From Octopus vulgaris (taxonomy: Eukaryota): DNA of 64,000 bases. The stretch spans positions 22,816,001 through 22,880,000 of the forward strand of contig OX597840.1 of NCBI GenBank assembly GCA_951406725.2, read 5' to 3'. Position numbers and translations under genes: made by a program. The notes under the pieces were generated by a model. It worked only from the letters and a program-made list of their open reading frames with translations. It was not told the DNA's origin and searched no databases. Positions 1 through 58,650 of the stretch are shown one piece after another (positions within the stretch are counted from its first letter, which is position 1; each line of letters starts with the position of its first letter).

Positions 1-939
1 TGTGATATAGTGTGGGTGGCGGCGGCGGTCCTGCACAGTGTGGAGCGGGAGGTTTCGATTCTGCAGATGAGAGGGAGGGAGGAGGTGCGCTGGAGGGGAC
101 GGACGCTGGAGCTCCTCGTTCGGGCGGGGAACAAGATGTTGGGGAGCCTGCCCGATGGGATGTTTGACGAGGATGGAACGTCCATGGGAGTGTCAGTGGA
201 GGGGCGCGGACCTGGATGTTTTAAATGTGGCGAGAGGGGTCACGTCCGCTCGAACTGCTTGCGGAAGGGGAAAACCAACGAGGCCCCTCCTCAAAGTGCT
301 TCAAGCACTGGAGGGGAGAGGGCGGGAAGGGATAGCGGGACGACGACGGGCAGGGGAGCAGAGGCGGAGGATTGTATCGAACGGGTGGATTGCGCACGGG
401 TGACACACAGGGGAAGGGAGGACAGCGCCCTGGACTCCCCTCCCCAAACAAGGAGGGGATCGGCGGGCACCGCAGACATACACGCAAAGCAGGTTCCCCA
501 GCCCTACCCCCATGGCACTGTGTTCATTGGGAAGCAGTTCGCCGGGCCCCTCCCCATAGAACAGGATGTGAGGGGGTCTTTGAAAGAGAATGATAAGATC
601 GTTGCTTTTGATGAGGGAAGCGAGAGGGTGTGTAAATACTATAAATTTTCAAAATTTAAACTATTTAGCAGGGCTACAGACGTAAAAGCGGCCACTCGCT
701 TCGCAGAGATAGGGGAGGACGAGTGGAGGGAGGAAATACTACAAGAACATCTAAAGAATAGACTGATTAGAGATGTAACAAAAGAAGTACTGGAGGGTAA
801 ACTTGTTATAACCCCGGCAACCACACCTACCCAGAGCCCGGTGGCAACGCCGGTTAAGAGCCCTGCAGCTACGACCACAAGGGAGGAAGAAGGGGAAGCG
901 GGCAGATTTAAACTGTCATGCTCCCTTTCTCAACCGTAA
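1..939 (+). CDS. LINE ORF1 (gag-like, CX2CX4HX4C knuckle), 5'-incomplete, A->G hypermutated
   Basis: CFKCGERGHVRSNC; open frame to TAA at 937-939; collinear with copy B ORF1. Confidence 0.85.
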   Translation, partial: CDIVWVAAAVLHSVEREVSILQMRGREEVRWRGRTLELLVRAGNKMLGSLPDGMFDEDGTSMGVSVEGRGPGCFKCGERGHVRSNCLRKGKTNEAPPQSASSTGGERAGRDSGTTTGRGAEAEDCIERVDCARVTHRGREDSALDSPPQTRRGSAGTADIHAKQVPQPYPHGTVFIGKQFAGPLPIEQDVRGSLKENDKIVAFDEGSERVCKYYKFSKFKLFSRATDVKAATRFAEIGEDEWREEILQEHLKNRLIRDVTKEVLEGKLVITPATTPTQSPVATPVKSPAATTTREEEGEAGRFKLSCSLSQP

Positions 940-966: not shown

Positions 967-3900
967 ATGGCTAAGCTGGGTTGTGTGAATGTACGTGGAA
1001 TGGGGACGAAATGGAAACAAATTTGTTTCCTGAACGACCTCACGACACATGGAGTAGACATAGCTATTGCAACCGAGTCCAAGATGAACGAGGCCCAAGC
1101 GTTCTCGCCTCTTCTAAATGGGTTCGATAAATTTATTTCTCCTAGCCGAGGAAGAGGCAGAGGCGTGGCAGTCCTTATCAGGAAGAGCTTGGACTTGCAG
1201 GTAAGTACTGTCTTTCTGGAACCAGAAGGCAGGCTGGTTGTTCTGGATGTGACCCACGTAAGTAAACAGTCCTTCAGGTTGGTAGCTGTCTACGCTCCGA
1301 ACGAGGGTAGACAGACGGGTTTTTTCGGAACCTGGAGCCCTTTTTAGCGACGTCGAAAACGGTAATCCTAGTAGGGGACTTTAACACTGTCCTTGAAGCG
1401 CGGGTCGACAGTGTTGGCTCAACCAATAGGAAGGGGAACCCTAGCCTCAAGAGTCTACTAGAGAGCTTTGATCTAGTGGACCGTTACCGACTGGATGAGC
1501 CGAGCGTTCCACAGTGGACGTGGAGTAACAACGACGGCTCACACAGATCGTATTTAGATAGGATATTTATTAAGAAAAGAGATAAGGATACGTTTAGTTG
1601 TCCACAGTTTCACATTGTGCCTTACACGGATCACAAATTTGTGACGTGTAGGATGCAATTAGACAAGTGTCATAGACAGGGACCCGGGTACTGGAAGCTG
1701 AACAAGGCTATTTTGAATTGTGAAGACTTCCGTACCCGGATTAAGGTGTTAGTACAGAGGGCATTGTGTGGCACCATCATTAACAATAGATGGTGGCACT
1801 CCCTCAAAAGAGCCATTCGTTCAGAGTCCATTAGATTTAGCAATCAGCTAAGGTTAGATAGGTCTAGGATAGAGGACGATTTAGTTAAGAATCTAAACGA
1901 GGCAATGGAAGCTGGCTCTGCATCCGGAGTGATGGCGGCAAGGACGGTATTGTACCGTCACCTTAACTCCAAACACGAAGGTTGCAGAGTCAGAGCTAAG
2001 CTACGCGCTGGGAAACGAGAAGGTATTAACGTTGCCGGATGGGCCCGTCGAGTGGAGAGTCAGAGAGGTAACAAAGCCTCAATCAAGTCTTTAACTGACG
2101 AACAGGGACAAAAGATCTATGGACAGGAGGAGATGCAAAAGTTTCTTCACCAGCATTTCGCCCGCGTGTTCGGGGGTGGTGTGGCGCCGGAGCGGGGAGG
2201 ACCTTAAAGGACTTCCTGGCCGGCGGACCGCGGCTCTCGGGGCGTGAGGTGGAGTGCTGTGAAGAAGCGATCACTCCCGCGGAGATAGAGGGGATACTGG
2301 CCGGATGCGCCGGGGTTGGATGGGCTGCCCTACGAGTTTTACCAAAGTATGCCGGACTTGTTCGGGGGAATATTGGCAGGCGTCTACACGAACTGGCAGC
2401 AGAATGGGAGAATTCCCAGTTCTGTAAGCCGGGGAGTGGTGACGCTAATCCAGAAAGACCCGAGCAAGGGGGATAACATTAGTAACTACAGGCCCATAAC
2501 TCTACTTAATGTAGAGTTAAAGATTTTGGCCAAGGTGTTGGCAAAAAGGTTGACGGTTGTCGTGGAGAAACTTGTAGGGAGAGCACAGACATGTGCAATT
2601 CCAGGCAGGTCGATCCAGGACAATTTTCACCTTATACGCTACACCTTAGATAGGGTGGGTAAATTAACCGGCAAGGGCGGGGTAATGGTCCATTTAGACC
2701 AAAGTAAAGCGTTCGATAGGGTAGACCATGAGTACCTGGCGACGGTCCTCGAAGCGGCTGGACTGGGCCCTGAATTTCGCGGGTGGATCTCCGCTATGTA
2801 TAGCGGCATCAAGTCCACCGTCCAGATAAACGGTTACCTAACGGAACCGTTTTCGATCGAATGTTCAGTTCGTCAAGGGTGCCCCTTGTCACCACTTTTG
2901 TACGTGTTGGCTCTTGAGCCATTGCTGCGAAAGTTGGAGAGGCTGGGAAGTAACTCGGATGAGATCGGAGGTGGGAGGACGGTTACTGCTTATGCGGATG
3001 ACGTCACCCTCATCGTGTCCAATGAGGCCCAGCTACCTTGTGTGGAAGAGGCTATCAGAGGATACGAGGCGGTGGCAGGAGCAAAGGTTAACAAGGACAA
3101 GTCGGTTGGCTTGCGCCTCGGCACCTGGAGGAGCAAGTCGATATCGTCCAGTGTCGTGGGACACTGGACGGATGGCCCTGTTAAGTTGCTAGGAGTTTGG
3201 TTTGGGCCAGACTCCCAAACGGAGAGGAACTGGAGTGAGGTGACGAGCAAGGTGGAGGCCAAAGTACGGACCTGGTCCGGAAGGTTTCTGTCCTTGAAAG
3301 GAAGGGTGGAGGTGGTACAGATGTTCATTGCATCTGTAATCACTTACCGCCTGACCGTTGTCCCTTGCCCCGATTCATGGCTTAGCAAGTTGGAGCGAAT
3401 CCTTTTCCGCTTTTTGTGGAAGGGAGGAAAGCCACTTGTGAGGCGCTCCGTTTGCTGCCAGGAACCGTTAAAGGGTGGGTTAGGAATGCCTTGGTTGATG
3501 ATGCGCAGACATGCGTTGAGGCTGAAGCATCTCTGGCACCACCTGGAGGGTGATAAGGTGTGGAGTCCGCTGGCAGGGGAATTTTTCCCGAGACCGGCCT
3601 CCTTAGTGAATTTTAAACCCGGTCGCATCAAAAGATGGAAACTGACTTTATGGCAAAAGGAGTGCCGACAGGCACTCACGCTGATCCACAAGGCGGGCAA
3701 GGCCGGCTGCGGAAATACCACCTCGGTATTTTATAGAAGGCTGGTAGAGGCAAAGAACGACGACGTCCTAGGAGGGGCTCTGGGGTTTGACGAAGACCAG
3801 CTTACCAACCTGTTTAAAAAGACTTTCAGGACGGGGTATTTGGATAATTTCCAAAGATCCCTGACCTGGCAGTGCTATAGGAATGCTTTACCTGTTCGCG

Positions 3901-4339
3901 AGAAGTTATCGCGGCACGGAATCTCAGTGCCACCGACGTGTCCAAGGTGCGAGTTGGACGATGAAACCGTCCAGCACGCTTTTGTACACTGTCGGAAGTT
4001 GTCCGACTTGATAAGTTACGCAGAACACGTGTTATCGCATCTGGGACGAGTACAGCTGTCGGCTGAGTCTATGATTAAGATGATACCGCCAACTGGACTC
4101 TCGAAGGAAGGTGAGGCATGTTTTCACTGCACGGTTGCAGTAGTAAAAGAATGCATGTGGCGTACAAGAATGGAAGGAGTCGCGATAGGATCCTTTGTCT
4201 CGGGCCCCGGCTTGCTCACTTACTTCAGATATCATCTGAAGAGCAAAATGGGGCTGGAAAAGAGGATCTTACCACGGGGTGGTATGAGAAAAGATGGAAG
4301 GAAGTGGAAAAAAAGGTGGGTGTCAGAAACCCAGCTTAA
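967..4339 (+). pseudogene. LINE ORF2 (APE endonuclease-RT-zinc domain), frameshifted
   Basis: NVRG, ATESK, VYAPN, GDFN, YLDRIF and TDH (APE); YRPITLLN, DQSKAFD, VRQGCPLSP and YADD (RT). Frame breaks near 1325, 2200, 2311 and 4281. Confidence 0.92.
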
Positions 4340-4596
4340 CTATGGAGGGAGGAGAGGAAACAAAAGCTGCGGGGCCTTATAAATTGCCGGGGTTTAAAAC
4401 TTCGGTAAGATCGAAAGTTTATGAAATGTTATAATATTCTATTGGTCATGTAAAGGACAATTTACAGACGAATTTTTATAATGAATAATCCAAATGTTAT
4501 GGAAAATTTTTAATCGAACCTCTTAACTGTTTTTTGCATGTATGTCCTGTATTTGTCCTTCTATGTAACGATTGTATAATCATAATAAAGAAATAT

Positions 4597-4908
4597 AGAG
4601 TTAGTTCCCCTTGTCAACTCTTCCTAATTTTCTTTATTTCTTGTTCTTGTTTCTCACGCACCTTCATTGTTTGATCAGTTCCACTTGACAACTGATATTT
4701 AAGAGAAAATCCAATCAAATATACACAAATGATTGGTAATTAACTGTCTAAAGAAGCAGATACAGCATTTTCGATTATGTGGACCTGAAAAATATTAATT
4801 AACGTTTGTTGTAGAAACCTAGAAATTCTCTTGAAGCTGTCGTTGTCCACTCTGACTCCAGTTCTCACATCTTCCTCCTTCACTCTTTCTCTCCATATCT
4901 ATTACTAT
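4597..4908 (+). promoter_or_regulatory. Putative promoter and non-coding exon 1 of ZF gene 1
   Basis: GAGTTAGTTCCCCTTG motif, CCAAT (4711) and ATTGG (4732), a pyrimidine-rich exon-like tract, and donor GTAAGT at 4909. The block recurs upstream of ZF genes 2, 3 and 4. Matching acceptor TTCTTTCAG ends at 8394. Confidence 0.6.
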
Positions 4909-7730: not shown

Positions 7731-8825
7731 CTCATATATATATATATATGTATGTATTTGTATATATGGCTCCCATGCAGGTGGCATGTAAAAAGTACCA
7801 TTCGAGCATGATTGATGCTAGTGCTGCCTGACTTGCACCCATGCCGGTGGCACATACATAGCACCATTCAAGCATGGTCGATGCCAATGCTACCTGACTG
7901 GCTCCGTGGCACATAAAAGGCAACCGCTACACGCTCAAACAGCATCCAGCTGTAGAAATCTTGCCTGATAAGATTGAAACCTTGTTCAGCCTCATGGCTT
8001 GCCAATCCTCAGTCAAACCTCACAAACCATGCCAGCGTGGAAGGCAGATGTTAAACGATGATGATGAAGGTAGAGAAAGAGCGATGTCTGTTTTAGCAAA
8101 CAAAGATACACGACTGCAATGAAAACGTCAGAAATCTAGTGTCATTTATATGTATATTGGTGTGTGTGGAAGTGTGTCTATGACAGACTTTATATTCCAG
8201 GAGTTGGTATTATAATAGATGTGTCTACTCTATGATATAAACATTTTGGTAATGCAGAAATTGGATAAATTCAATGGTTCAGATAAAGAATTACTTCTAC
8301 AATTTATGAAAACAGAAATGTCTTAAATTTGCACTTTAGAATATCTGCCTTTTAAACATACTTGATGTCTTATATTATTTTCGTATTCTTTCAGAAAATC
8401 ATATGAATTTGGCTAAAAAGTATTTTTTACTTTTAAAGAATCATCAATATGTATCATGTTTGAAAGACTCTGCAAAGATATTCTACAAACGTATACTCCT
8501 GCTTCTATAAAACATTGCTGAGTTACAGTAAAATATTTCCTCTGAGAGAGAGAAAGCATTTCTTTACTTCTGTGTCTGAAATGTGCAAGAGATAATTTCC
8601 TCTTTTAAATATACTTTGATAGATTTCCAAAGGGTATTTGCAACATTTTTAAATATTGGCATTGATCACGTTTAGAAGAAATATAAGAGAAGTGATATTT
8701 GTTTGGAATAAACTATAAAAGCAAAAAGAAGCAAAATATCCATAAATTTTGGTGAGAGGAGAAATATTTATGAAAAGTTGTTAATCTGTACAACTTGAAT
8801 GTTCAGTTTTATTTTTCTTGAAGAG

Positions 8826-9860
8826 ATGTCGGAAGAATTAAGAAAATCATCATATGACTGTGACATCTGCAAAGAGTCATTCTTAGAAGAAAGTAAATTC
8901 AATCAACACAAACAGATTCATACAGGAGAGAAACCATATCACTGTGATATCTGTGGTAAATCATTCTCTCAAAGCGATAGCTTAACTAAGCACAAACGTA
9001 TTCATACAGGGGAGAAACCATATCACTGTGATATCTGTGGTAAATCATTCTCTCATGGCAGTAGCTTATCGAAACACAAACGTATTCATACAGGAGAGAA
9101 ACCATATCACTGTGATATCTGTGGTAAATCATTCTCTGTTGGCAGTAACTTAACTCAACACACACGTACCCATACAGGGGAGAAACCGTATCACTGTGAT
9201 ATCTGTGGTATAACATTCTCTCAAAGCAGCCGCTTAACTCAGCACAAACGTATTCATACAGGGGAGAAACCATATCACTGTAATATCTGTGGTAAATCAT
9301 TCTCTGAAAGCAGCAGCTTAACTCAACACACACGTACCCATACAGGAGAGAAACCATATTCCTGTGATATCTGTGGTAAATCATTCTCTGATGGCAGTAA
9401 CTTAACTGAACACACACGTACCCATACAGGGGAGAAACCATATCACTGTGATATCTGTGGTAAATCATTCTCTGAAAGCAGCAGCTTAACTCAACACACA
9501 CGTACCCATACAGGAGAGAAACCATATTCCTGTGATATCTGTGGTAAATCATTCTCTCATAGTGGTAGCATAACTACTCACAAATGGGTTCATACAGGGG
9601 AGAAACCATATCACTGTAATATCTGTGGTAAATCATTCTCTGTTGGCAGTAACTTAACTAAACACAAGCGTATTCATACAGGGGAGAAACCATATCACTG
9701 TGATATCTGTGGAAGATCATTCTCTGAAAGCAGCAGCTTAGCTAAACACAAGCGTATTCATACAGGGGAGAAACCATATACCTGTGATATCTGTGGTAAA
9801 TCATTCTCTCATAGCAGTAGCTTATCTAACCACAAGCGTATTCATACAGGGGCGGAATGA
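8826..9860 (+). CDS. C2H2 zinc-finger protein (ZF gene 1), 12 fingers, no recognisable effector domain
   Basis: Start [15 protein letters not shown] is shared with paralogs; repeated CDICGKSF...H...HTGEKPY; ORF track 8799-9860. Confidence 0.9.
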
Positions 9861-10073: not shown

Positions 10074-11989
10074 TGATTTAAACAGAAGTCTTTCCTTATG
10101 AAATGGGTCCATAACACAGTGATATTTGTTGTATAACATTTCCTCAGAAGGACAAAGGACGTATCTCATAAAGACAGCCACAGAATATAGAAACTATATG
10201 AATGTGACATCTATAGTAAATCTTTGACATGAAATCATCCATTATTGAATCAAAACCGAGCATTGACCGAGGAAGGAAAACATATCACTGTGATGTTAAA
10301 CCTGAATCATTCTTTCAAAATGGTGAATTGTTTGTACACAGTCCTATTAATATGAAAGATATAACTGTAACTTAAGCTATTTGTGCTAAATCAATCTATG
10401 AAAATGGATCAATTATTGAAATGTAAATACATTGATACAGAAGAGGAACCATGATGATGATGATCCTCATCATTGAACATTCTCCTATTCATGCTTCTGT
10501 GGATCAGATGGAATTCATTGATGCAGATTTTCTACATCTGGGTACCTTTCTTATGACTAATCCTCACCTGTTTCCTAGCAAGGAAATACTTTCCATGGTG
10601 AGACATATTTTACGCAGAGGACTGGAAGTGAACAACTGCACAAGTATGACGGTCATGATGGCCCGTTACAGACATCACATAATATCTGGACAAGGGCAAA
10701 TACACACACACTCACATAAACTGTTGTGTGTCTCAAGAATTTCTCATGGGAAATATATGTTACATGTTTTCTACACATCTAAAAGCTTGTGATTCCTATT
10801 AGGAAATGAAACACATGTAATGCTGAATAAATAATACCAAACTTTTCTCCGGTCTCCTTATGTGATTTGTAATTACCTTGCAAAAAATATTATCCAAACC
10901 TCCCACAAAAATAATGTACGTGTATATATGTAATCACAAGCTTGTTTGTTCAACTGGTGTATTTATGTTAGTTAGAGTAGTGGGGTGAGTGGGAGGGAAA
11001 AGTAAAGGAAGGTGGTCTTATAATAATTCTGCTTGTCATTACGTTACTTAGGTCATCAGTAACACTTTCATGTGATTGGAGAGAAAGGATAAGGCCATGA
11101 GTGGGACGGGAAGAGAGAGAAGCGTGCATGACGTGATGGGGGGACATATTTAGTTGAAGGTTGAGATATAGAGGAGAGTTAGGAATATAATTTTAGAAGG
11201 TGGGTGATGTTCTGATGGAGAGATTAAAGAAAGGTAGAGAGAGAAAGATGATGGTGGTGGTTGTGGTGGTGAATACAGAGTGTAAATAATTTTTTTTTTT
11301 TTTTTACTTGAACTAAGTTTTTTTACAACACCTACAAATTGAAATGTGTATTGGCTCTCTGACCCATCACCTTGGCTTACAAGTTACCACTGATGTGGAT
11401 TTCAGAGTAAGCCATGTTACATTAAATTGTGACCCCTATATTTTACATATAAGGTAATTTTTTTAGTATACACTTCTCATGTTTTAGATAAGAAATTGTG
11501 CCCATGTAAATTTTAAAATGTAATTTTTTTCTGTTCATGAGAAAACTGGAAAAATATGAGCGAATATTTATTTTATGAGTGCTGTGTCTATAAAATTGTG
11601 CATAAAGTGTATTAAGTAATTACCGTATTCCAATTTCCTTCAGTTTTCAGTGAATAACAGATGAGTGACTATCTTTTGATGCAGACACAATACAGGCTCC
11701 ATTTTAGAGTGTTTTGGTTTCAGGAATAACCCAATCCATTGCCTCACTAGACACCGAGGCCATGACTAGTGACCGGGACCTTTTGTTTTTGGATAATGGA
11801 TAAACAGCTAAAAGATTATATAAATATATATTTATAAAATTAAAGACTTAAATCTGAACAAGATGCAAAGCAAAAAGAGAAGAATTCAATTAAGAATGCA
11901 TCGGGTGAAAGAATATTGGTTTAAAAAACATACGACATAAAAATGATAACAATGAAGACTATAAGGAATATGAGGGAGATAGGGTGAAT

Positions 11990-12370
11990 CCTTTCTTTTT
12001 GACAATGGCTGGGCATTGTCTTGTTGGAAGACTAATTCTTTTCTGTTCTTTGATATATTTTGGTTCAAATTAGCCAGTTGACGACAGAACACATCAGAAT
12101 TAATGGTCTGGTTTTATGGGAGAAGGTCATAATAAACAATGCCTTTATGATCCCACCAAACACAAAGCACAGGTGTGTTGCCATGGATATTCATCTTTGG
12201 TTGCTTGGGGGATATTTCTGCAAACTCCAGGATCAGTTTTGCACAACATTAAACATGCAATCCATTTTTCATCTCCAGTCACAATTCGTTTCCAAAAGAG
12301 GGCATGCTTTCTTGCCAATTCAAAAGCATATCCCAAACGGAATACTGGTCCCAGCAATTCTTTTCTGAGA
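11990..12370 (-). mobile_element. Mariner transposase remnant (inverted paralog ~36790-37185)
   Basis: KRIVTGDEKWI and VFQQDNA motifs, fragmented. Confidence 0.75.
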
Positions 12371-13027
12371 GTTTCAAGCACCCATATATTAAAGCAAAGA
12401 GTAAGATAGAAAGAGGGACAGAGAGAAGCATACATGATATGTGATAGAGGGGAACATAATATTTATTACATGATTAAAAAAGTTAGTTGAAGTTGATGAT
12501 ATAGAGAAGTTAGCAATATAATTTTAGCAGAGTGGTGATGTTCTGATGGTGAGATTTGAGGCACAAAGAGAGAGAGAGAGATGATGGTTGTGGTGGAGGA
12601 AATGGTGATAAACAGTGCATAGTTAAAAGTAATTTGATTTTTAATTGAACAAAGGTTTTTCTATCACGTATTTGCAGAATTGTATAAATTACCGTGTAAA
12701 AAGTACAAAATCACAATAATTTGATATTTCTCCCCCTTTTTTTACTTGAACAGCTTCCAAATATTGTTTTCTAAATGGGAAAGAATGATCAAACTTTAAA
12801 CCACAGTAACTTTTTAAAAAATTCTTTTGTGGAAGAAGCAAATTAACTGATGGAATTCAGCGTGGAAAATTATGGGGATACCTCAAATACGGAAATTTTC
12901 ACTACACTCGAACATTTCCACATGTGGCCGCAAAACGGAAAAGGGTTGGTGATAATAATAATTGTGATGAAGCCGAATATTGAAGAAATCTCTTTCACAA
13001 AATACCAAATCTATAAAGTAGAGCCGC

Positions 13028-13099: not shown

Positions 13100-13321
13100 T
13101 AAGTTAGTTAATTTGGCTCAAAAGCAAATAGCAAGGCCATGTAGGGGGACATGGAGTTGAGTACAGGGTGGTGTTCATGTAAAGAGTTCAGGCCACTTGA
13201 GGTCCAGGGAGGCTTTGAACAAAGCGGTCGTCTGCATCTTCACCATCTCGTCTGGCAGCTTGTTCCACGGATCTGCAACCCGGACGGAGAAAGCTCCTCT
13301 CCTTCGATTGAGATGAAATCG

Positions 13322-16000
13322 TCACAGGTAGAGCTTTTCGGAATGACCCCGCAGCCGACGCTCTGGAGCAGGAGTGAAGAACAGCTCTTTCGAGAGGTTA
13401 CACTTTCCGCTTATGATGTTGTGGGCGAGAATGAGATCGCCACGCCGGCGGCGTTTTTCAAGAGAATAAAGGTCGAGCGTCCTCAGCCTTTCTTCGTAGG
13501 ACAAATTTTTGAGACCATGAACCATGCGGGTAGCCAGCTTCTGGACTCTTTCGAGATGCTGTATGTCTTTGAGGAGATAAGGAGAAGAGGCTTGAATCCC
13601 ATACTCCAATATGGGTCTCACCAGCGTGACATAGAGTGGTAGGAATATGGCTGCTGTGAGCATTCCGAATGACCGTCGAATCAAGAACAGAATTCCGCAT
13701 GCTTTGTTGGCAGCATGGACGCACTGGGCCGAAGGCGAAAAGGAGGAATCCACCAAGATACCCAGGTCCTTTACCTGATCGGTCCTCTCCAGCAGCAGAC
13801 GACCCGGCTCGAAATCAAGTTGAGTTGCAGGAGTAGAGCCGACAGGCAGATGACAGCACTTTGACACGTTCAGACACAGGTCCCAATCGTTAGACCACTT
13901 CCAAATTTGGTGGAGGCATCGACGAAGATCCTCTATATTACCGTGAGGAGCGACCAGTTTGATATCGTCGGCAAATAGAAGGGTGTGTTGCGTGAGGTCG
14001 TCGGGCAAGTCATTTATGAAGACTAAGAACAACAAGGGCCCAAGCACTGAACCTTGAGGCACGCCACTGCTCGCACTGGAGACGTCAGACTGCGAACCAT
14101 TAACTTGGACTTGGAAGGAGCGATCTGAGAGGAAGGCACCAACCCATTGTATAATATCCGGATGGAAACTATATGCTTGAAGCTTGACAAGTAATAGGCG
14201 GTGGTTTACCGAGTCAAAAGCTTTGGCAAAGTCCAATAAAACGATGTCAACAGCATCACTATCATCGAGAATGCGCGTCACCAATTCTTCCATTACTAGT
14301 AAGTTGGTCAAGCATGATCTCTTCGGCACGAAGCCGTGTTGGGAATCAGAGATAGAGGCTGTGTTTAGGAGGTGGAGCATCATACTTTTCTTAAGGATGG
14401 TTTCGAACATCTTGCTGATTATTGATGTAAGGGAAACCGGTCGGTAGTTAAGCGGGTCTTCGCGGCTCCCTTTCTTGAAAATTGGGCAGATTATCGCTGT
14501 TCTCCAGTCTGCAGGTATAACACCCGTCGCCAATGACATATTGAATAGTCGTGTTAAGGGCTCGCAGATGACCGGAGCCAACGCTTTGATAACCCGTGGG
14601 TGTATGCCGTCAGGGCCATGACCCTTGTTGACATCGAGGCCTTGAATAACACGTTTGACTTCGTCCCGCGTGATGACCAATCGAAGCATTGGAGGTACCG
14701 ATCTATCAAATGGAGGGGGTTCACGACCATCATCTTGTTTGAAAATAGTTGAAAAAGCCTCGGCAAATAATTGACTGTTGATAAGGGTCCTCAATCGATA
14801 CGCCTGTTGAGTCTACCAACGTTGCAATCTGGTTGTTCAAGCGGGAATACCGCTGGACATGGGCAAAGAAGGTTTTTGGATTGCTACTGGCATTTGCCGC
14901 GATTTTGTATTCATAACTGAAGCGTTCTTTCTTTTCAATTTTCACGGCTCGGTCTCGTTGAGTTTTGTACACCTCAAAAGCTGCAGTCGAATCCAGATTT
15001 TTGAATTCAGCCCAAGCAATATCTCTGAGTCGACGTTCTTGTTTAACCTTCTTCGTCACCCAGGGCTTGTGTTTCTTCTTCTTGGGAAGCCCAACGGGAA
15101 CTGCCTGGTCAGTCAAACAGATTACATATGCTTTGAGGGATGACCATAGTTCGTCAACAGAGGACAACGTCATCAGGGATCGCCAGTCCAGAAGCGCGGA
15201 AGCCTCGGTTAGAATTTCAAGATTAATTGCAGAGAAGACTCTACGTGGCAGCGAAGTAGTCGTGGGCGTAGAAAAAGTTGTGTGCATGACGAACTTCAGG
15301 ACCGCATGATCACTCTTGGCAAGAGGGGTGCACACAGATACGTCTGACACTGATCTTGGATAGCGGGAGAATACCAGATCTAGCATAGATGGCTGCTGCC
15401 CAGACCGATGCCTTGTCGGATATTCAACATGTTGCGATAGAAAACAGTCTTCAGTCACGTCAAGAAGGGCCTGGCCGAAACGGGAAGATGTTGTACAAAT
15501 TGATGTGGGCCAATCAATCGTGGGAGCGTTGAAGTCTCCTAGTACCAAACAGTCATGCGAAGCTGAAACGAATCTTATCGCTTCGAGTAAATGAGCATCG
15601 TCCTGGGGGTTGGCAAGAGGCGGCCTGTAGACAGCCAACACGGGCAGGCAAAACTCAGATAGGCTCAGCTTGCAATAGACGGCATCGAATTTTGTTGTAG
15701 GTTGAGCATTAGTGGGTAGAATACCGCTGGACGGTTTGTGCTCAGACTTAACATACACAGCAACACCTCCACCTCGCCTTTTTCCTCTGTCACATCTGAA
15801 AACGACGTAGCCCTGCAGGTGGATTTCTGAGTCCTTTACTGCTGGAGTCAGCCAAGTCTCGGTGATAGCTATCACATCAGGGGAGTCACGTATGGCCAGT
15901 GTAAATAGTTCACTGAACTTTGGGAATAAGGAGCACGAGTTGGTGTAGACGATGCTGAGCTGTGAAGTCTGAGGGGCGGGAGTTGGGGAACAAGCAGAAT
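13322..16000 (-). pseudogene. CR1 LINE ORF2 (APE-RT), frameshift near 14790
   Basis: APE motifs in ORF 14730-16682; RT motifs in ORF 13322-14794. Confidence 0.88.
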
Positions 16001-16621
16001 AAGGGGTATCAGAGATAGCATCGTTGATGGGGGTATCGACTTCACTTCGATTTGCCCTCACATCACTTTCCCTGTCAGCACTACAGCATGGGACCAGAGG
16101 TAGGACTTGATTATCTGTCCATCTTGGATTCGTAAACCCTTCTCTCGCATTTGTTTCCTCATCTTTAGTTCGGATATTAGGTTTCTCTGGCGAATTCTCT
16201 CTCTTAGTGAGTATTCCTCGCGAAAACCCATATTGGGGTCCTCCCAGGCATGCGTCTGAGCTCTGTTCAGAAAGACTGAAGCCTCCCGATCGGAGGAGAA
16301 GATTACCCTTATTGGTATCTGAGGTTGGGTTCGCTTGGAATCTTCCTAGCCGAGCGACCTTATGGACACTGACATTTTCGTTCACAGAGAACAATTTTCC
16401 AACTAAAATGGAAACAAAATTAATGTCATCTTTTAGGCAGTTTATGCCTGTATCACAGGTGGATTCAGCTTTACCATAAATTATTGCTGATCTTGAGTGG
16501 GCAAAATGTTCTCTACTATGAGCTGCGGTATTCGATTCTTCATTGGAAGATTTCGAAAGGGTGGTTTCATAGCCATTGGACTTAGGTCGGCCTGTGGGGT
16601 CGATCGGAATGGGTTTAGTGG

Positions 16622-17491
16622 TCATAATTTTCCCGCCTGGTTTGGAACTGCACTGCCTCTTCTTCGGTTTGGGGAGCACCACTCCCCAGATGAACTCACA
16701 TCGAGATCGTTCAGAATTGGTTGAGCAATGGCATTAATGGGAAGGACAAGTGAGGGAGAATCCAAACAGATTTTATCGTGATCAGGTTTCATAGCTAAAT
16801 CTGCCCCACTGGAGTTTTGACTACGTTTCTTCTTTTGGGGAGAATAACGGTCCTCAGGTGGGTTTGAGTCTACGCTCCTCAAATTAGGTTGGGGAACCTC
16901 CGGGACCGAAAAGGCAGATGAGGAAGAATCCGCACAGGAACGATCATGTGCAGAAATGACCGCCGGTTCCTTCGCCTTCTTTGGCCGCTTCGATTTTGTT
17001 CCCTTCGGTTTGGACGTCTCCAGGGAAGAAATCAAGGGTGACTCTGCGTCAACAGGAGACTGTTTATTGTGGTCAGGTTTCATAGCTAAATCTGCCCCAC
17101 TGGAGTTTTGACTACGTTTCTTCTTTTGGGGAGAACAACGGTCCTCAGGTGGGTTTGAGTCTACGCTCCTCAAATTAGGTTGGGGAACCTCCGGGACCGA
17201 AAAGGCAGATGAGGAAGAATCCGCACAGGAACAATCATGTGCAGAAACGACCGCCGGTTCCTTCGCCATCTTTGGCCGCTTCGATTTTGTTGTCTCCAGG
17301 GAAGAAATCAAGGGTGACTCTGCGTCAACAGGAGACTGTTTATTCAGTAAGAGAGCAACAACAGACTTTAGGTGCTCGACCTCTTGTTTGAGCAACAGCA
17401 ACTGCTCGTTGAGCTGACTGTTGGTAGGACCATCATCTTGATGAGAAGCCCTACTTGCAGATCTCAGTTTCGATGCGTAGGTAGCTGACAT
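16622..17491 (-). CDS. CR1 LINE ORF1 (coiled coil plus duplicated low-complexity segment), C-terminus frameshifted
   Basis: ORF track; an internal ~90-aa tandem duplication. Confidence 0.65.
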   Translation of the reverse strand: MSATYASKLRSASRASHQDDGPTNSQLNEQLLLLKQEVEHLKSVVALLLNKQSPVDAESPLISSLETTKSKRPKMAKEPAVVSAHDCSCADSSSSAFSVPEVPQPNLRSVDSNPPEDRCSPQKKKRSQNSSGADLAMKPDHNKQSPVDAESPLISSLETSKPKGTKSKRPKKAKEPAVISAHDRSCADSSSSAFSVPEVPQPNLRSVDSNPPEDRYSPQKKKRSQNSSGADLAMKPDHDKICLDSPSLVLPINAIAQPILNDLDVSSSGEWCSPNRRRGSAVPNQAGKL

Positions 17492-17994
17492 GATGGATGG
17501 TTGACTAAAAACAATCTTCTATGGGCTCTAGGACAAATCGGAGTTAAATCAGGAACAAAAAACAGGTGCAATCCTTGTAGGAGTAGGCAGCAGCAGACAA
17601 AATCTGAGAGAGTTTGGGCTGAGCCGAATCACAATCCAAGATTGAAAGCAGACGGTGCAACAAGTCGGGAACCCTTCCTAATTGTCTGAAGCAGCTTTAG
17701 GATAAGGGATAGTATGTCCAACTTTAGAATATTGATATACATGTAAAATGTTCCACACGATTAAATATCATTTGACGTGCCATTTAGTACTTCAATAATT
17801 GCATCTGCGCGTGTTTGTATATGTGTGAATAACGTGTTTATGTGCGAGAAGGCACATGTTTTTATCTATCGTTAAGTGTCGCTGCGCTGAATGTAGTCCA
17901 GTTCTTGTAACATGAAAAAGTAAATAAACACGTAAACGATAACAATGGCTTCATATTGGTTGTCTATCCCATTAGAAGGAAACAACACATAACA

Positions 17995-18012: not shown

Positions 18013-18119
18013 AATTAATCGGAAACTGTGCCTTTACAACAAAACAGAAACACAACGAACCAGAAATTAACAAACAAAACATCGCTTCGTCTTCGGACAC
18101 ACATACACGAGGATCCAAA

Positions 18120-49223: not shown

Positions 49224-50933
<1,710 letters not shown>

Positions 50934-52993: not shown

Positions 52994-53299
52994 ATAGTAA
53001 TAGATATGGAGAGAAAGAGTGAAGGAGGAAGATGTGAGAACTGGAGTCAAAGTGGACAACGACAGCTTCAAGAGAATTTCTAGGTTTCTACAACAAACGT
53101 TAATTAATATTTTTCAGGTCCACATAATCGTAAATGCTGTATCTGTTTCTTTAGACAGTTAATTACCAATCATTTGTATATATTTGATTGGGTTTTCTCT
53201 TAAATATCAGTTGTCAAGTGGAACTGATCAAACAATGAAGGTGCGTGAGAAACAACAAGAAATACACTTAATTAGGAAGACTCAACAAGGGGAACTAAC
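52994..53299 (-). promoter_or_regulatory. Putative promoter and exon 1 of ZF gene 4
   Basis: Reverse complement of 4597-4908; donor at 52993. Confidence 0.6.
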
Positions 53300-53559
53300 T
53301 CCATATTTCTTTATTATGATTATACAATCGTTACATAGAAGGACAAATACTGGACATACATGCAAAAAACAGTTAAGAGGTTCGATTAAAAATTTTCCAT
53401 AACATTTGGATTATTCATTATAAAAATTCGTCTGTAAATTGTCCTTTACATGACCAATAGAATATTATAACATTTCATAAACTTTCGATCTTACCGAAGT
53501 TTTAAACCCCGGCAATTTATAAGGCCCCGCAGCTTTTGTTTCCTCTCCTCCCTCCATAG

Positions 53560-56500
53560 TTAAGCTGGGTTTCTGACACCCACCTTTTTTTCCACTTCCT
53601 TCCATCTTTTCTCATACACACCCCGTGGTAAGATCCTCTTTTCCAGCCCCATTTTGCTCTTCAGATGATATCTGAAGTAAGTGAGCAAGCCGGGGCCCGA
53701 GACAAAGGATCCTATCGCGACTCCTTCCATTCTTGTACGCCACATGCATTCTTTTACTACTGCAACCGTGCAGTGAAAACATGCCTCACCTTCCTTCGAG
53801 AGTCCAGTTGGCGGTATCATCTTAATCATAGACTCAGCCGACAGCTGTACTCGTCCCAGATGCGATAACACGTGTTCTGCGTAACTTATCAAGTCGGACA
53901 ACTTCCGACAGTGTACAAAAGCGTGCTGGACGGTTTCATCGTCCAACTCGCACCTTGGACACGTCGGTGGCACTGAGATTCCGTGCCGCGATAACTTCTC
54001 GCGAACAGGTAAAGCATTCCTATAGCACTGCCAGGTCAGGGATCTTTGGAAATTATCCAAATACCCCGTCCTGAAAGTCTTTTTAAACAGGTTGGTAAGC
54101 TGGTCTTCGTCAAACCCCAGAGCCCCTCCTAGGACGTCGTCGTTCTTTGCCTCTACCAGCCTTCTATAAAATACCGAGGTGGTATTTCCGCAGCCGGCCT
54201 TGCCCGCCTTGTGGATCAGCGTGAGTGCCTGTCGGCACTCCTTTTGCCATAAAGTCAGTTTCCATCTTTTGATGCGACCGGGTTTAAAATTCACTAAGGA
54301 GGCCGGTCTCGGGAAAAATTCCCCTGCCAGCGGACTCCACACCTTATCACCCTCCAGGTGGTGCCAGAGATGCTTCAGCCTCAACGCATGTCTGCGCATC
54401 ATCAGCCAAGGCATTCCTAACCCACCCTTTAACGGTTCCTGGCAGCAAACGGAGCGCCTCACAAGTGGCTTTCCTCCCTTCCACAAAAAGCGGAAAAGGA
54501 TTCGCTCCAACTTGCTAAGCCATGAATCGGGGCAAGGGACAACGGTCAGGCGGTAAGTGATTACAGATGCAATGAACATCTGTACCACCTCCGCCCTTCC
54601 TTTCAAGGACAGAAACCTTCCGGACCAGGTCCGTACTATGGCCTCCACCTTGCTCGTCACCTCACTCCAGTTCCTCTCCGTTTGGGAGTCTGGCCCAAAC
54701 CAAACTCCTAGCAACTTAACAGGGCCATCCGTCCAGTGTCCCACGACACTGGACGATATCGACTTGCTCCTCCAGGTGCCGAGGCGCAAGCCAACCGACT
54801 TGTCCTTGTTAACCTTTGCTCCTGCCACCGCCTCGTATCCTCTGATAGCCTCTTCCACACAAGGTAGCTGGGCCTCATTGGACACGATGAGGGTGACGTC
54901 ATCCGCATAAGCAGTAACCGTTCTCCCACCTCCGATCTCATCCGAGTTACTTCCCAGCCTCTCCAACTTTCGCAGCAATGGCTCAAGAGGCAACACGTAC
55001 AAAAGTGGTGACAAGGGGCACCCTTGACGAACTGAACATTCGATCGAAAACGGTTCCGTTAGGTAACCGTTTATCTGGACGGTGGACTTGATGCCGCTAT
55101 ACATAGCGGAGATCCACCCGCGAAATTCAGGGCCCAGTCCAGCCGCTTCGAGGACTGTCGCCAGGTACTCATGGTCTACCCTATCGAACGCTTTACTTTG
55201 GTCTAAATGGACCATTACCCCGCCCTTGCCGGTTAATTTACCCACCCTATCTAAGGTGTAGCGTATAAGGTGAAGATTGTCCTGGATCGACCTGCCTGGA
55301 ATTGCACATGTCTGTGCTCTCCCTATAAGTTTCTCCACGACAACCGTCAACCTTTTTGCCAACACCTTGGCCAAAATCTTTAACTCTACATTAAGTAGAG
55401 TTATGGGCCTGTAGTTACTAATGTTATCCCCCTTGCTCGGGTCTTTCTGGATTAGCGTCACCACTCCCCGGCTTACAGAACTGGGAATTCTCCCATTCTG
55501 CTGCCAGTTCGTGTAGACGCCTGCCAATATTCCCCCGAACAAGTCCGGCATACTTTGGTAAAACTCGTAGGGCAGACCATCCAACCCCGGCGCATCCGGC
55601 CAGTATCCCCTCTATCTCCGCGGGAGTGATCGCTTCTTCACAGCACTCCACCTCACGCCCCGAGAGCCGCGGTCCGCCGGCTAGGAAGTCCTTTAAGGTC
55701 CTCCCCCGCTCCGGCGCCACACCACCCCCGAACACGCGGGCGAAATGCTGGTGAAGAAACTTTTGCATCTCCTCCTGTCCATAGATCTTTTGTCCCTGTT
55801 CGTCAGTTAAAGACTTGATTGAGGCTTTGTTACCTCTCTGACTCTCCGCTCGACGGGCCCATCCGGCAACGTTAATACCTTCTCGTTTCGCAGCGCGTAG
55901 CTTAGCTCTGACTCTGCAACCTTCGTGTTTGGAGTTAAGGTGACGGTACAATACCGTTCTTGCCGCCATCACTCCGGATGCAGAGCCAGCTTCCATTGCC
56001 TCGTTTAGATTCTTAACTAAATTGTCCTCTATCCTATTCCTATCTAACCTTAGCTGATTGCTAATTCTAATGGACTCTGAACGAATGGCTCTTTTGAGGG
56101 AGTGCCACCATCTATTGTTAATGATGGTGCCACACAATGCCCTCTGTACTAACACCTTAATCCGGGTACGGAAGTCTTCACAATTCAAAATAGCCTTGTT
56201 CAGCTTGCAGTACCCGGGTCCCTGTCTATGACACTTATCTAATTGCATCCTACACGTCACAAATTTGTGATCCGTGTAAGGCACAATGTGAAACTGTGGA
56301 CAACTAAACGTATCCTTATCTCTTTTCTTAATAAATATCCTATCTAAATACGATCTGTGTGAGCCGTCGTTGTTACTCCACATCCACTGTGGAACGCTCG
56401 GCTCATCCAGTCGGTAACGGTCCACTAGATCAAAGCTCTCTAGTAGACCCTTGAGGCTAGGGTTCCCCTTCCTATTGGTTGAGCCAACACTGTCGACCCG

Positions 56501-56935
56501 CGCTTCAAGGACAGTGTTAAAGTCCCCTACTAGGATTACCGTTTTCGACATCGCTAAAAAGGGCTCCAGGTTCCGAAAAAAACCCGTCTGCCTACACTCA
56601 TTCGGAGCGTAGACAGCTACCAACCTGAAGGACTGTTTACTTACGTGGGTCACATCCAGAACAACCAGCCTGCCTTCTGGGTCCAGAAAGACAGTACTTA
56701 CCTGCAAGTCCAAGCTCTTCCTGATAAGGACTGATACGCCTCTGCCTCTTCCTCGGCTAGGAGAAATAAATTTCTCGAACCCATTTAGAAGAGGCGAGAA
56801 CGCTTGGGCCTCGTTCATCTTGGACTCGGTTGCAATAGCTATGTCCACTCCATGTGTCGTGAGGTCGTTCAGGAAACAAATTTGTTTCCATTTCGACCCC
56901 ATTCCACGTACATTCACACAACCCAGCTTAGCCAT
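53560..56935 (-). pseudogene. LINE ORF2 (APE-RT-zinc domain), one frameshift near 55590
   Basis: ORFs 55424-56935 and 53560-55584. Confidence 0.92.
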
Positions 56936-56962
56936 TGTCGGTGAGAGAAAAAATAAATGAAC

Positions 56963-58398
56963 TTACGGTTGAGAAAGGGAGCATGACAGTTTAAATCTGC
57001 CCGCTTCCCCTTCTTCCTCCCTTGTGGTCGTAGCTGCAGGGCTCTTAACCGGCGTTGCCACCGGGCTCTGGGTAGGTGTGGTTGCCGGGGTTATAACAAG
57101 TTTACCCTCCAGTACTTCCTTTGTTACGTCTCTTATCAGTTTATTCTTTAGATGTTCTTGTAGTATTTCCTCCTTCCACTCGTCTTCCTTTATTTTTGCG
57201 AAGCGAGTGGTTGCTTTTATGTCTGTAGCCTTGCTAAATAGTTTAAATTTTGAAAATTTATAGTATTTATATACCCTCCCGTTTTTTTCATCAAATGCTA
57301 TGATCTTATCATTTTTTTAAAAAGACTTTTTCACATCTTGTTTTATGGGGAGGGGCTTGGCGAACTGTTTTCCAATGAATACAGTGCCGTGGGGGTAGGG
57401 CTGGGGAATTTGCTTTGTGTGTATGTCTGCGGTGCTTGCTGATTTTTTCCTTGTTTGGGGAGGGGAGTCCAGGGTGTTGTCTTTTTTTCTTTTGTGTGTC
57501 ACCTGTGTGTAATCCATTTGTTCGATACAATCCTCCGTTTCTGTTTCTTTGCTTGTCGTCGTCTTGTTTTCTTTTTCCGCCTTCTCCCCTTCAGTGTTTG
57601 AAGCACTTTGAGGAGGGGCTTCGTTGGTTTTCTTTTTTTTTAAGCAGTTCGAGCGGACGTGACCCTTCTCGCCACATTTAAAGCACCTAGGTCTGCGTCC
57701 CTCCACTGACACTCTCATGGACGTTCCATCCTCGTTAAATATCCTATCGGGCAGGTTCTCCAATATCTTGTTTTCTGCCTGAACGAGGAATTCCAGCGTC
57801 TGTCCCTTCCAGCGTACCTCCTCTTTCCTTCTCATCTGCAGAATCGAAACTTCCCGCTCTACATTGTGCAGGACCGCCGCTGCTACCCACATTATATCAT
57901 ACCCTCTCGGTATGTCCTCTACCAGCAGTTTAGCTGTTCTTTTTCCCATATACGAGGGTAGCAACATGATATCATCATTTTTCAGGGTCATTGATGACAC
58001 CTCTCTTGCTACCTCAGCCGAGTCAAAATGTGCTTCAACAGTAGCGCTGCGAGCACCTCGAACGACATGGCGAATTTTGTCCCACACCGGGACAAGCACT
58101 TTTCGACTATCTCGTTTCTAACGTCCATAATTTTTTTTTCTTTGTAGCTATACACTTTGTATATAACTGTCTTTTCCTTTATTTCTTGTACCTTCGCTTG
58201 CGGCGGTACAAGTTTGATTTCGTTTCCTTCCATTTTTACAAAGTTCCGAAATTCGAATAGTTGTTCGATCTTGAATTCAACGTCCATCATGGTTCCGCCT
58301 ACCGCGGCCGAAAAAGACTGTTTTTTTACTTCAGTGTCCTTTAATTCACTTGTTCCCATCGCGGGAAAATCATTCTTCGACGCCAAGTCGAAATCCAT
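56963..58398 (-). pseudogene. LINE ORF1 (CCHC), frameshift in an A-run near 58135 and TAA at 57317
   Basis: MDFDLASKNDF start; VEGRRPRCFKCGEKGHVRSNC. Confidence 0.85.
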
Positions 58399-58650
58399 TT
58401 CTCAAAAATGTTTCAAAAATTACCTCGAAGGTAATAACAATTTTAAACACAGAATTTTCTGACCCGTAGGGCGAAAATTACCGTTACACAACGGGCACTG
58501 TTCAATTAACAATTAACAACAAACAACGATGAGCAAAAAGTCGAACTCTCTCAACAAAAGGCAGCAAATTTCTCAAAACGCAGATGAAAGTTAACAAGGG
58601 GAACTAACCCTTGTCTTGAAATGTTAACGGCTTTACTGATATATATTTGA

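What the first reader, a model, noticed from the sequence alone, without database searches (positions are those of the whole stretch)
1..785. ADAR-type A-to-I hyper-editing apparently written back into genomic DNA in a LINE ORF1
Seen: aligning 1-785 by hand with the reverse complement of copy B (57901-57117) gives about 109 positions where B has A and A has G, against about 14 other differences. The bias stops near 760, and the rest of the element shows only scattered, unbiased differences. An A directly 3' of G is usually spared while the following As change (GGAAAAAATC->GGAGGGGATC, GTGAAAAAG->GTGAGGGGG, GGAAAG->GGAGGG). Copy B looks ancestral: it keeps all Trp codons in the tract and has GRRPRC and HKRKK, where copy A has GRGPGC and HRGRE. 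Established: ADARs disfavour a 5' G, reverse transcriptases read inosine as G, and coleoid cephalopods edit heavily. Inference: a hyper-edited transcript was reverse-transcribed and fixed, by retrotransposition or cDNA-mediated conversion. That would make RNA editing a heritable germline mutagen or anti-transposon defence. The ORF stays open because A->G cannot create stop codons.
Basis: partly seen in the sequence, partly recalled or inferred. Interest (0 to 1): 0.93.

Follow-up and report, generated by a model that had tools for sequence, protein, structure and literature searches.

The report
ADAR-edited octopus LINE copies in DNA
Several copies of one octopus jumping gene carry a long, one-stranded run of A-to-G changes with the signature of the RNA-editing enzyme ADAR, which means edited RNA was most likely copied into the inherited genome more than once.

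Summary
Confirmed, and larger than first read. Copy A is a full-length 5.3-kb L1/Tx1-like LINE with a perfect 19-bp target-site duplication. It carries 206 A>G changes over element positions 20-1412 (42% of As, 9 other changes) and 0 at the 1,040 As beyond. G is the derived base: 105 of 108 sites are A in most of 32 other copies. Neighbour preferences match ADAR (5' U 0.61, A 0.57, C 0.32, G 0.07; 3' G highest). DNA contigs from two studies hold the G allele. Seven of 21 young copies are edited, in three patterns ending at 941, 1104 and 1412; one origin for all seven is rejected (p-AU 0.022). A diverged copy carries a further, patchy event. All tracts stop before ORF2. Best reading (0.85): sense RNA hyper-edited on a 5' duplex, then reverse-transcribed at insertion. 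The partner strand and germline timing are inferred; no RNA editing was observed. A>G hyper-editing is published for exogenous proviruses. Six searches found no germline LINE case, but this scan noted it before in L1 copies of other genomes. Unproven (0.3): an edited ORF1 patch founded an active 22-copy lineage.

The parts
1..728 (+). In-window part of the A>G tract of LINE copy A. The whole tract spans element positions 20-1412, that is about 670 bp upstream of the window to window 728: 206 of 495 As changed, 9 other changes.
1..939 (+). 3' part of ORF1 of copy A (zinc knuckle; Pfam zf-CCHC 20.4 bits, just under the 20.8 cut-off, against 22.4 in B). Frame open, start codon changed ATG>GTG upstream of the window, about 108 of 478 residues differ from the family majority.
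967..4382 (+). ORF2 of copy A (endonuclease, RT, zf-RVT as typed on copy B), broken by frameshifts; no A>G change against the family majority.
4595..4613 (+). 3' copy of the 19-bp target-site duplication; the identical 5' copy lies upstream of the window (L061:9290-9308). The element ends at 4594 with no poly(A) tail.
53304..58588 (-). Copy B: full-length, unedited member of the same young subfamily, at a paralogous target site; ORF1 and ORF2 broken.
57117..57899 (-). Stretch of B matching window 3-785 (A-rich, ancestral state at 105 of 108 sites).
8799..9860 (+). C2H2 zinc-finger coding exon downstream of copy A, same strand; the LINE target motif lies 2-4 kb upstream of such exons.
49797..50915 (-). 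C2H2 zinc-finger coding exon downstream of copy B, same strand as B.

Best explanation
The sense RNA of a young, target-preferring L1/Tx1-like LINE was paired over its first 0.9-1.45 kb (5' UTR and ORF1) with a complementary RNA and was hyper-edited by ADAR. The element's own RT then copied the full-length RNA into a new germline site, reading inosine as G. This happened at least twice, probably three times, in the young subfamily, and once more in a diverged copy. Shown: direction, strand, context, density, boundaries, TSD, presence in DNA, more than one origin. Inferred: ADAR as the enzyme, editing before insertion, germline timing, and the partner strand. The likeliest partner is an antisense transcript that starts late in ORF1 (about 0.45). 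The alternative is antisense RNA from other copies, with only ORF2-spared RNAs able to insert because ORF2 protein acts in cis (about 0.4).
For: Purity: 206 A>G and 9 other changes in the tract; 0 A>G at 1,040 As and 12 other changes beyond it. Polarity: 105 of 108 sites are A in the majority of 32 other copies. Context pooled over three patterns: 5' U 96/157, A 270/477, C 57/178, G 21/308; 3' G 134/242, C 82/196, A 159/476, U 69/206. This is the order given for human ADAR1/2, 5' U>A>C>G with 3' G first (PMC3113232, passages), and for metazoans in general (PMC9989829, passages). The edited share, 0.37-0.42, is under the 50-60% ceiling for long dsRNA. All tracts are A>G on the sense strand; no T>C tract was flagged in 61 family alignments. 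Full length with a 19-bp TSD; the 5' flank is unbiased against paralog L009, 10 A>G of 62 differences. A and unedited L009 differ 4.2% in the 5' flank but 0.6% in the body, so they are separate insertions. The C2 copies sit on a different backbone, with markers interleaved through the tract; one clade for all 7 edited copies is rejected, p-AU 0.022. DNA runs X1 (570-nt contig, 0 differences) and X2 (597-nt contig, 1 difference; 219-nt contig, 0) hold the G allele. The deaminase domain PF02137 is present at 4 loci of the genome.
Against: No edited RNA and no antisense RNA was seen; the one RNA-type run laid gave one unedited contig. No partner was found: the element has no long internal inverted repeat (best 35 bp) and the one 5'-only fragment (positions 4-847) is shorter than every young tract. 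Site sharing is high (65 sites in all three patterns against 36 expected from nearest neighbours), and A plus C27x/y as one origin is not rejected (p-AU 0.37). In human cells no editing was found in more than 2.5 kb of L1 RNA (PMC5224506, passages). The run type 'DNA' is a guess of the tool, and X1 or X2 may be the assembly's own sample. Run X6 (76% read) had no cover in most dense bins.
Confidence: 0.85

Rival explanations
1. ADAR made the edits, but they reached this locus after insertion, by conversion from an edited cDNA or from another edited genomic copy.
For: Conversion or unequal exchange does act on these arrays: the C2b-d units are closer to empty units (7-10 differences in about 1,190 bp upstream) than to the filled C2a unit (20-21), yet share C2a's edit pattern. 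Copy X is patchy.
Against: No donor with A's pattern was found among the 40 best matches of two searches with the edited sequence. The tract reaches the element's 5' end and stops there, with an unchanged TSD and an unbiased flank. A genomic donor only moves the question back to a first reverse-transcribed copy.
Confidence: 0.07
2. A mutator other than ADAR: an error-prone polymerase of the pol eta kind (WA hotspot, recalled), RT infidelity under nucleotide imbalance, or an adenine deaminase acting on single-stranded DNA or on the RNA:DNA hybrid.
For: The 5' U/A preference overlaps the WA motif (recalled). ADARs can edit DNA in RNA:DNA hybrids in vitro (PMC12925331, passage).
Against: 206 of 215 tract changes are A>G, with only 2 A>T and 1 A>C; pol eta gives many transversions at far lower density (recalled). 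Editing of first-strand cDNA would read as T>C on the sense strand, which is not seen. The 3'-G preference (p 4e-4 in A) is an ADAR feature.
Confidence: 0.05
3. Assembly or polishing artefact, for example long-read purine confusion or edited RNA reads used in polishing.
For: The stretch is a repeat, and no single contig spans it from the unique flank through the tract.
Against: Contigs of 570 and 597 nt from two studies match the G allele with 0 and 1 differences. Duplicated copies keep the same pattern (C2b-d, 133-134 shared sites; C27x/y, 101).
Confidence: 0.015
4. A is ancestral and B is a G>A (C>T) deaminated copy.
For: None found beyond the symmetry of a two-copy comparison.
Against: Most of 32 other copies, including diverged subfamilies, have A at 105 of 108 sites.
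Confidence: 0.005

Closest known systems
ADAR-type A-to-G hypermutation of retroviral RNA recorded in proviral DNA (Rous-associated virus U3 and avian leukosis virus inverted repeat, as reviewed in PMC12925331; BLV 3' LTR clusters, PMC8025556; passages read)
   Same: Clustered one-strand A>G changes, up to nearly 50% of As, fixed in DNA by reverse transcription.
   Different: Those are exogenous viruses in somatic cells, with short tracts (about 70 bp in BLV). Here it is a non-LTR element in the inherited genome, with tracts of 0.85-1.4 kb, repeated in one subfamily and confined to the part 5' of ORF2.
APOBEC 'DNA editing' footprints in germline LTR retroelements (PMC4866542, passages)
   Same: A host deaminase leaves a hypermutated retroelement copy in the genome; it is found by comparing copies of one subfamily.
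   Different: That is G>A from C-to-U on cDNA, in vertebrate LTR elements, with invertebrates used as negative controls. Here it is A>G with ADAR context in an invertebrate LINE, and it cannot make stop codons.
ADAR1 restriction of human L1 (PMC5224506, passages; PMC4982230, passages)
   Same: ADAR meets LINE RNA.
   Different: That work found no editing of L1 RNA and an editing-independent block; the review calls suppression by mutation 'not yet determined' (said of Alu). The copies here point to catalytic editing that survives into new insertions.
Mouse L1 antisense promoter in ORF1 (PMC3985663, passages)
   Same: It would give a duplex over the 5' UTR and ORF1, the region edited here.
   Different: No antisense promoter is shown in this element, and the passages read report no A>G copies.
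Tx1-clade non-LTR retrotransposons (PMC4494074, passages)
   Same: Endonuclease-RT-zinc-binding ORF2, zinc-knuckle ORF1, preference for a repeated target.
   Different: The target here is a motif upstream of tandem C2H2 zinc-finger genes; clade membership was not tested on an RT tree with named references.

Membership tests
ADAR hyper-editing footprint | Changes are A>G from an A ancestor, on one strand | tested here: met
   105 of 108 sites polarised; 206 of 215 tract changes; no T>C tract flagged in 61 alignments
ADAR hyper-editing footprint | 5' neighbour U>A>C>G | tested here: met
   0.61, 0.57, 0.32, 0.07 pooled; each of three patterns p<1e-13 for 5' G depletion; reference order from PMC3113232
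ADAR hyper-editing footprint | Weaker 3' preference for G | tested here: met
   G 0.55 against 0.33-0.42; p 4e-4, 4e-3, 1e-3. Not seen in copy X (11/32 against 39/108)
ADAR hyper-editing footprint | Dense cluster, up to 50-60% of As, with sharp limits | tested here: met
   0.37-0.42 of As; per-100-bp counts fall to 0-2 past each end
ADAR hyper-editing footprint | A dsRNA partner covering the tract | tested here: inconclusive
   No internal inverted repeat over 35 bp and no adjacent inverted 5' fragment in the regions fetched; no stranded RNA available
ADAR hyper-editing footprint | ADAR present and active in the cells concerned | tested here: inconclusive
   PF02137 at 4 loci (the family also holds ADAT1, recalled); editing of repeats is widespread in coleoids (PMC9068888, passages); germline activity not tested
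ADAR hyper-editing footprint | Inosine in the RNA, dependent on catalytic ADAR | not testable with these tools
   needs raw stranded RNA reads or an assay
New insertion by target-primed reverse transcription | Target-site duplication around the element | tested here: met
   19 of 19 bases identical on both sides; an empty paralogous site has one copy
New insertion by target-primed reverse transcription | Changes confined to the element, not the flank | tested here: met
   5' flank against L009: 10 A>G, 11 G>A, 11 T>C of 62
L1/Tx1-like non-LTR retrotransposon | ORF1 zinc knuckle; ORF2 AP endonuclease, RT, zf-RVT; no LTRs | tested here: met
   Pfam PF00098, PF03372, PF00078, PF13966; ends mapped
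Tx1 clade | Target-sequence preference | tested here: met
   12 of 21 young copies sit at the same motif in zinc-finger units; the other 9 are at unrelated sites, so preference, not strict specificity
Tx1 clade | RT groups with named Tx1 elements | not tested
   no named references in hand; the atlas search gave only generic RT names
APOBEC DNA-editing footprint | G>A on the sense strand against the family | tested here: not met
   A has 4 G>A and B 15 over the whole element

The most novel reading that the evidence does not exclude
ADAR editing is a recurring, inherited mutagen of this LINE that is filtered by ORF2 function, and one edited ORF1 patch (element 1325-1473; 15 A>G against 4 other group-fixed differences; none with a 5' G; 6 of 11 sites shared with copy A's edits) was fixed in a master element that went on to give at least 22 copies on many chromosomes. 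Host RNA editing would then have recoded the ORF1 protein of an active retrotransposon lineage. For: the G group is one side of a 100/99 branch in the ORF1 tree and sits above a grade of A-type copies in the rooted ORF2 tree. Against: sister families have V-G at two of the recoded residues, as the G group does, and the G group is not one clade in the ORF2 tree, so recombination with an unsampled lineage or reversion is possible.
Probability: 0.3. Interest if true: 0.9.

Novelty: new variant of a known kind. Interest (0 to 1): 0.76.

Why it matters
It is a route from RNA editing to inherited DNA change in the animal group best known for heavy editing. It bears on a question that a 2016 review left open, whether ADAR mutates retrotransposons (PMC4982230), and runs against the finding that L1 RNA is not edited in human cells (PMC5224506). 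Each copy is a record of one edited RNA molecule from the germline or early embryo, so enzyme preference, duplex extent and frequency can be read from a genome alone. The absence of tracts in ORF2 gives a direct test of cis preference or of an antisense promoter. A scan for sense-strand A>G clusters, the mirror of the published G>A scans, is simple to run on any genome.

Tried and rejected
B as a G>A copy: rejected. Assembly artefact: rejected. One shared edited ancestor for all seven young copies: rejected at p-AU 0.022, but not for A plus C27x/y. Fold-back inside the element: best inverted match 35 bp. B as the partner strand: it is inverted but 52 kb away and would pair over the whole length; nothing ties it to the tract. 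My first reading that the zinc-finger genes run antisense into the LINE was a misread strand column; they are on the same strand. 5'-only fragment at C27:23.01 Mb as partner: ends at 847, short of all three young tracts. An initiator-like hexamer (pattern recalled) on the antisense strand at element 1453: one hit in 2 kb, about what chance gives, not used. Generality: 0 of 30 copies of the window's second LINE family (at most 4 A>G per 300 bp) and 0 of 30 sister-family loci show a tract (one search was partly cut and that part was re-run); these were the best-scoring 30 of 210 and of 82 scored candidates, which biases against edited copies. RNA: no RNA holder was on record; run X7 gave one unedited contig; run X6 left most dense bins uncovered, which proves nothing. 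Outgroup for the G patch: mixed. Literature: six searches for a published germline LINE case and one on octopus listed none; the library lacks most subscription papers, and no supplements were read (those of PMC4866542 could bear on A>G control counts). The scan's own notes held nothing for this genome or this sequence.

Full report
Observation. Copy A (window start, + strand) and copy B (57899 downwards, - strand) align over 5.9 kb at 96%. In window 1-785 there are 108 positions with A in B and G in A, and 14 other differences; from 786 on, 15 of 87 differences are A>G. At that background the chance is 2e-66.

Setting. The window is G000:C27:22816001-22880000 of a 2.8-Gb genome with tandem C2H2 zinc-finger genes. 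A sister-family ORF1 is 99% identical to a protein named from Octopus sinensis, so this is an octopus of that group. The element is 5.3 kb: ORF1 (zinc knuckle) from position 190, ORF2 (endonuclease, RT, zf-RVT) from 1651. Copy A is full length, starts about 690 bp upstream of the window, ends at 4594, and has a 19-bp target-site duplication identical on both sides. The A-B likeness past 4594 is shared flank. Twelve of 21 young copies sit at one motif upstream of zinc-finger exons. That resembles the Tx1 clade (PMC4494074, passages), but clade membership was not tested.

Direction. Among 32 other copies, A is the majority base at 105 of the 108 sites; the other three are private to B. Against the majority of 14 unedited young copies, A has 206 A>G and 9 other changes in element positions 20-1412 (42% of 495 As), and 0 A>G at 1,040 As with 12 other changes after it. 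The tract ends at window 728. It changed ORF1's ATG to GTG and about 108 of 478 residues but left the frame open. The 5' flank is unbiased.

Signature. Edited share by 5' neighbour, pooled over three patterns: U 96/157, A 270/477, C 57/178, G 21/308. By 3' neighbour: G 134/242, C 82/196, A 159/476, U 69/206. Human ADAR1 and ADAR2 prefer 5' U>A>C>G with 3' G first, and stop at 50-60% of As on long dsRNA (PMC3113232, abstract and passages). The same 5' rule is reported for all metazoans surveyed (PMC9989829, passages and section 11). The deaminase family PF02137 is at four loci, and coleoid editing targets repeats in all tissues (PMC9068888, passages). The patterns share sites, so the pooled counts are not fully independent; each pattern alone gives p below 1e-13 for 5' G.

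Real DNA. At 95% likeness, run X1 gives a 570-nt contig with 0 differences over window 93-662; run X2, of another study and year, gives 597 nt with 1 difference and 219 nt with 0. Unedited copies are about 85% alike there and cannot supply these. X2's one difference suggests a second haplotype. Limits: run types are guessed, one run may be the assembly's sample, no contig joins flank and tract, and X6 (76% read) lacks cover in most dense bins.

Recurrence. Two searches with the edited sequence ranked six more edited copies first: four on C2 (tract to 1104; 135-138 sites) and two on C27 at 26.2 Mb (89-941; 100 sites). That is 7 of 21 young full-length or near-full-length copies, or 7 of 39 copies in the first set. 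The C2 copies carry backbone markers of the B/L010/L015 type spread through the tract. With the edited columns removed, one clade for all seven is rejected (p-AU 0.022); A plus C27x/y is not (p-AU 0.37). Sharing between A and C27x (76) is no higher than between A and the independent C2a (83), so three events are likely and two are the floor. Sharing in all three (65) exceeds a nearest-neighbour null (36); I read this as site-specific rates on the same duplex, which is inference. A diverged copy, X, has further patches at 374-631 and 1301-1456. No tract lies in ORF2 in any alignment examined. Controls: 0 of 30 copies of a second LINE family and 0 of 30 sister-family loci; these were top-scoring hits and so are biased against edited copies.

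Mechanism. Shown: derived, sense-strand, ADAR-context, saturating A>G tracts inside TSD-bounded insertions, arising more than once. Inferred: a duplex over the 5' 0.9-1.45 kb, editing by ADAR, then target-primed reverse transcription reading inosine as G (established RT behaviour, stated in PMC5224506), in germline or early embryo. The partner is unknown. No fold-back or adjacent inverted fragment fits. An antisense promoter late in ORF1, as in mouse L1 (PMC3985663, passages), would explain tracts that reach the 5' end and stop at 941-1456. Alternatively duplexes form anywhere and only RNAs with an intact ORF2 insert, if ORF2 protein acts in cis (recalled for L1); ORF1 would then be dispensable, supplied in trans, or made before editing. 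The two are not exclusive. Whether this is defence is open: A's ORF1 is heavily recoded, yet the RNA still inserted.

Possible edited founder. A G-rich patch at 1325-1473 marks 22 copies. It has 15 A>G against 4 other group-fixed differences, while positions 1-1300 are balanced (13 A>G, 11 G>A). None of the 15 has a 5' G (p 0.03) and 6 of 11 coincide with A's edits (p 0.008). A tree rooted on sister families puts A-type copies as a basal grade. But sister families share V-G with the G group at two residues, and the group is not one clade in ORF2. I give it 0.3.

Comparison and novelty. ADAR-type A>G fixed in DNA is known for exogenous proviruses (PMC12925331 and PMC8025556, passages), and APOBEC G>A footprints for germline LTR elements (PMC4866542, passages). 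For LINEs, human L1 RNA was reported unedited, and a review left mutation by ADAR open (PMC4982230, passages). PMC8586724 (passages) does not mention retrotransposition. Six searches and one on octopus listed no germline LINE case; the library is partial and no supplements were read. This scan has noted the same pattern in L1 copies and a provirus of other genomes (e1-8045164, e1-8045548, e1-7810917, e1-8036428); those are unchecked notes, seen after my reading was formed, and are not counted as support.

Verdict. It is a new variant of a known kind: confidence 0.85 in ADAR editing followed by retrotransposition, interest 0.76.

Noticed in passing
window 4595-4613 and 53285-53303; G000:C2:14.652-14.736 Mb; C27:23.21-23.24 Mb: The LINE prefers one motif that recurs once per unit in tandem C2H2 zinc-finger gene arrays, 2-4 kb upstream of the coding exon and on the same strand. 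In the C2 array 4 units are filled and 4 are empty. The motif may be the gene's start site; not tested.
   Followed up: partly
G000:C2:14661394 (C2a) and 14700159-14726054 (C2b-d): The edited element in C2a and C2b-d differs by 0.8%, but their host units differ by 1.7-2.1%, and C2b-d units are closer to empty units. The edited copy seems to have moved between units by conversion, unequal exchange or re-mobilisation in trans. C2b-d share a 1.65-kb internal deletion.
   Followed up: partly
G000:C3:97878738-97883994 (-), L129: Diverged copy X with patchy A>G against its two nearest relatives: 17 sites at 374-631, 3 at 904-960, 25 at 1301-1456; 48 A>G in the first 3 kb.
   Followed up: yes
L130-L132, L137-L145, L147-L154, L157, L158; element 1325-1473: A G-rich ORF1 patch shared by 22 copies recodes the motif YYKFSKFK...KIKEDEW to CCKFSRF...KVGEDEW; its direction is not settled.
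   Followed up: partly
G000:C1:77.364-77.380 Mb; C20:23.146-23.158 Mb; C3:97.871-97.884 Mb; C27:22.946-22.954 Mb: Head-to-tail arrays of the LINE, each copy separated by a repeat of the target site, and most copies lacking a poly(A) tail.
   Followed up: no
G000:C27:22.9336-22.9545 Mb (L010, L012): Two full-length copies lie head to head about 10 kb apart and belong to the two 5' backbone types on which the edited copies sit; the pairwise distances give no sign that they are the sources.
   Followed up: partly
L013, G000:C17:1.4797 Mb: A copy at an unrelated site carries a few target-like bases after its 3' end, a possible trace of a read-through template.
   Followed up: no
window 13145-17518 (-): A second young LINE family with a 290-bp tandem repeat in ORF1; 30 copies show no A>G tract.
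   Followed up: partly
window 18015-20540 (+): Gag-, protease- and RT-like ORFs of an LTR-type retrotransposon (by eye); not examined.
   Followed up: no
window 22737-25506: Two adjacent 1.25-kb inverted arms, 92% alike, able to form a long hairpin; not examined.
   Followed up: no
window 10230-12968 and 36182-38921: A 2.7-kb inverted duplication, 93% alike; not examined.
   Followed up: no
G000:C23:43310386-43311861: A sister-family ORF1 is 99% identical to a protein that its source names as an Octopus sinensis gene, so the genome is of that species group, and a LINE ORF1 is annotated there as a host gene.
   Followed up: no
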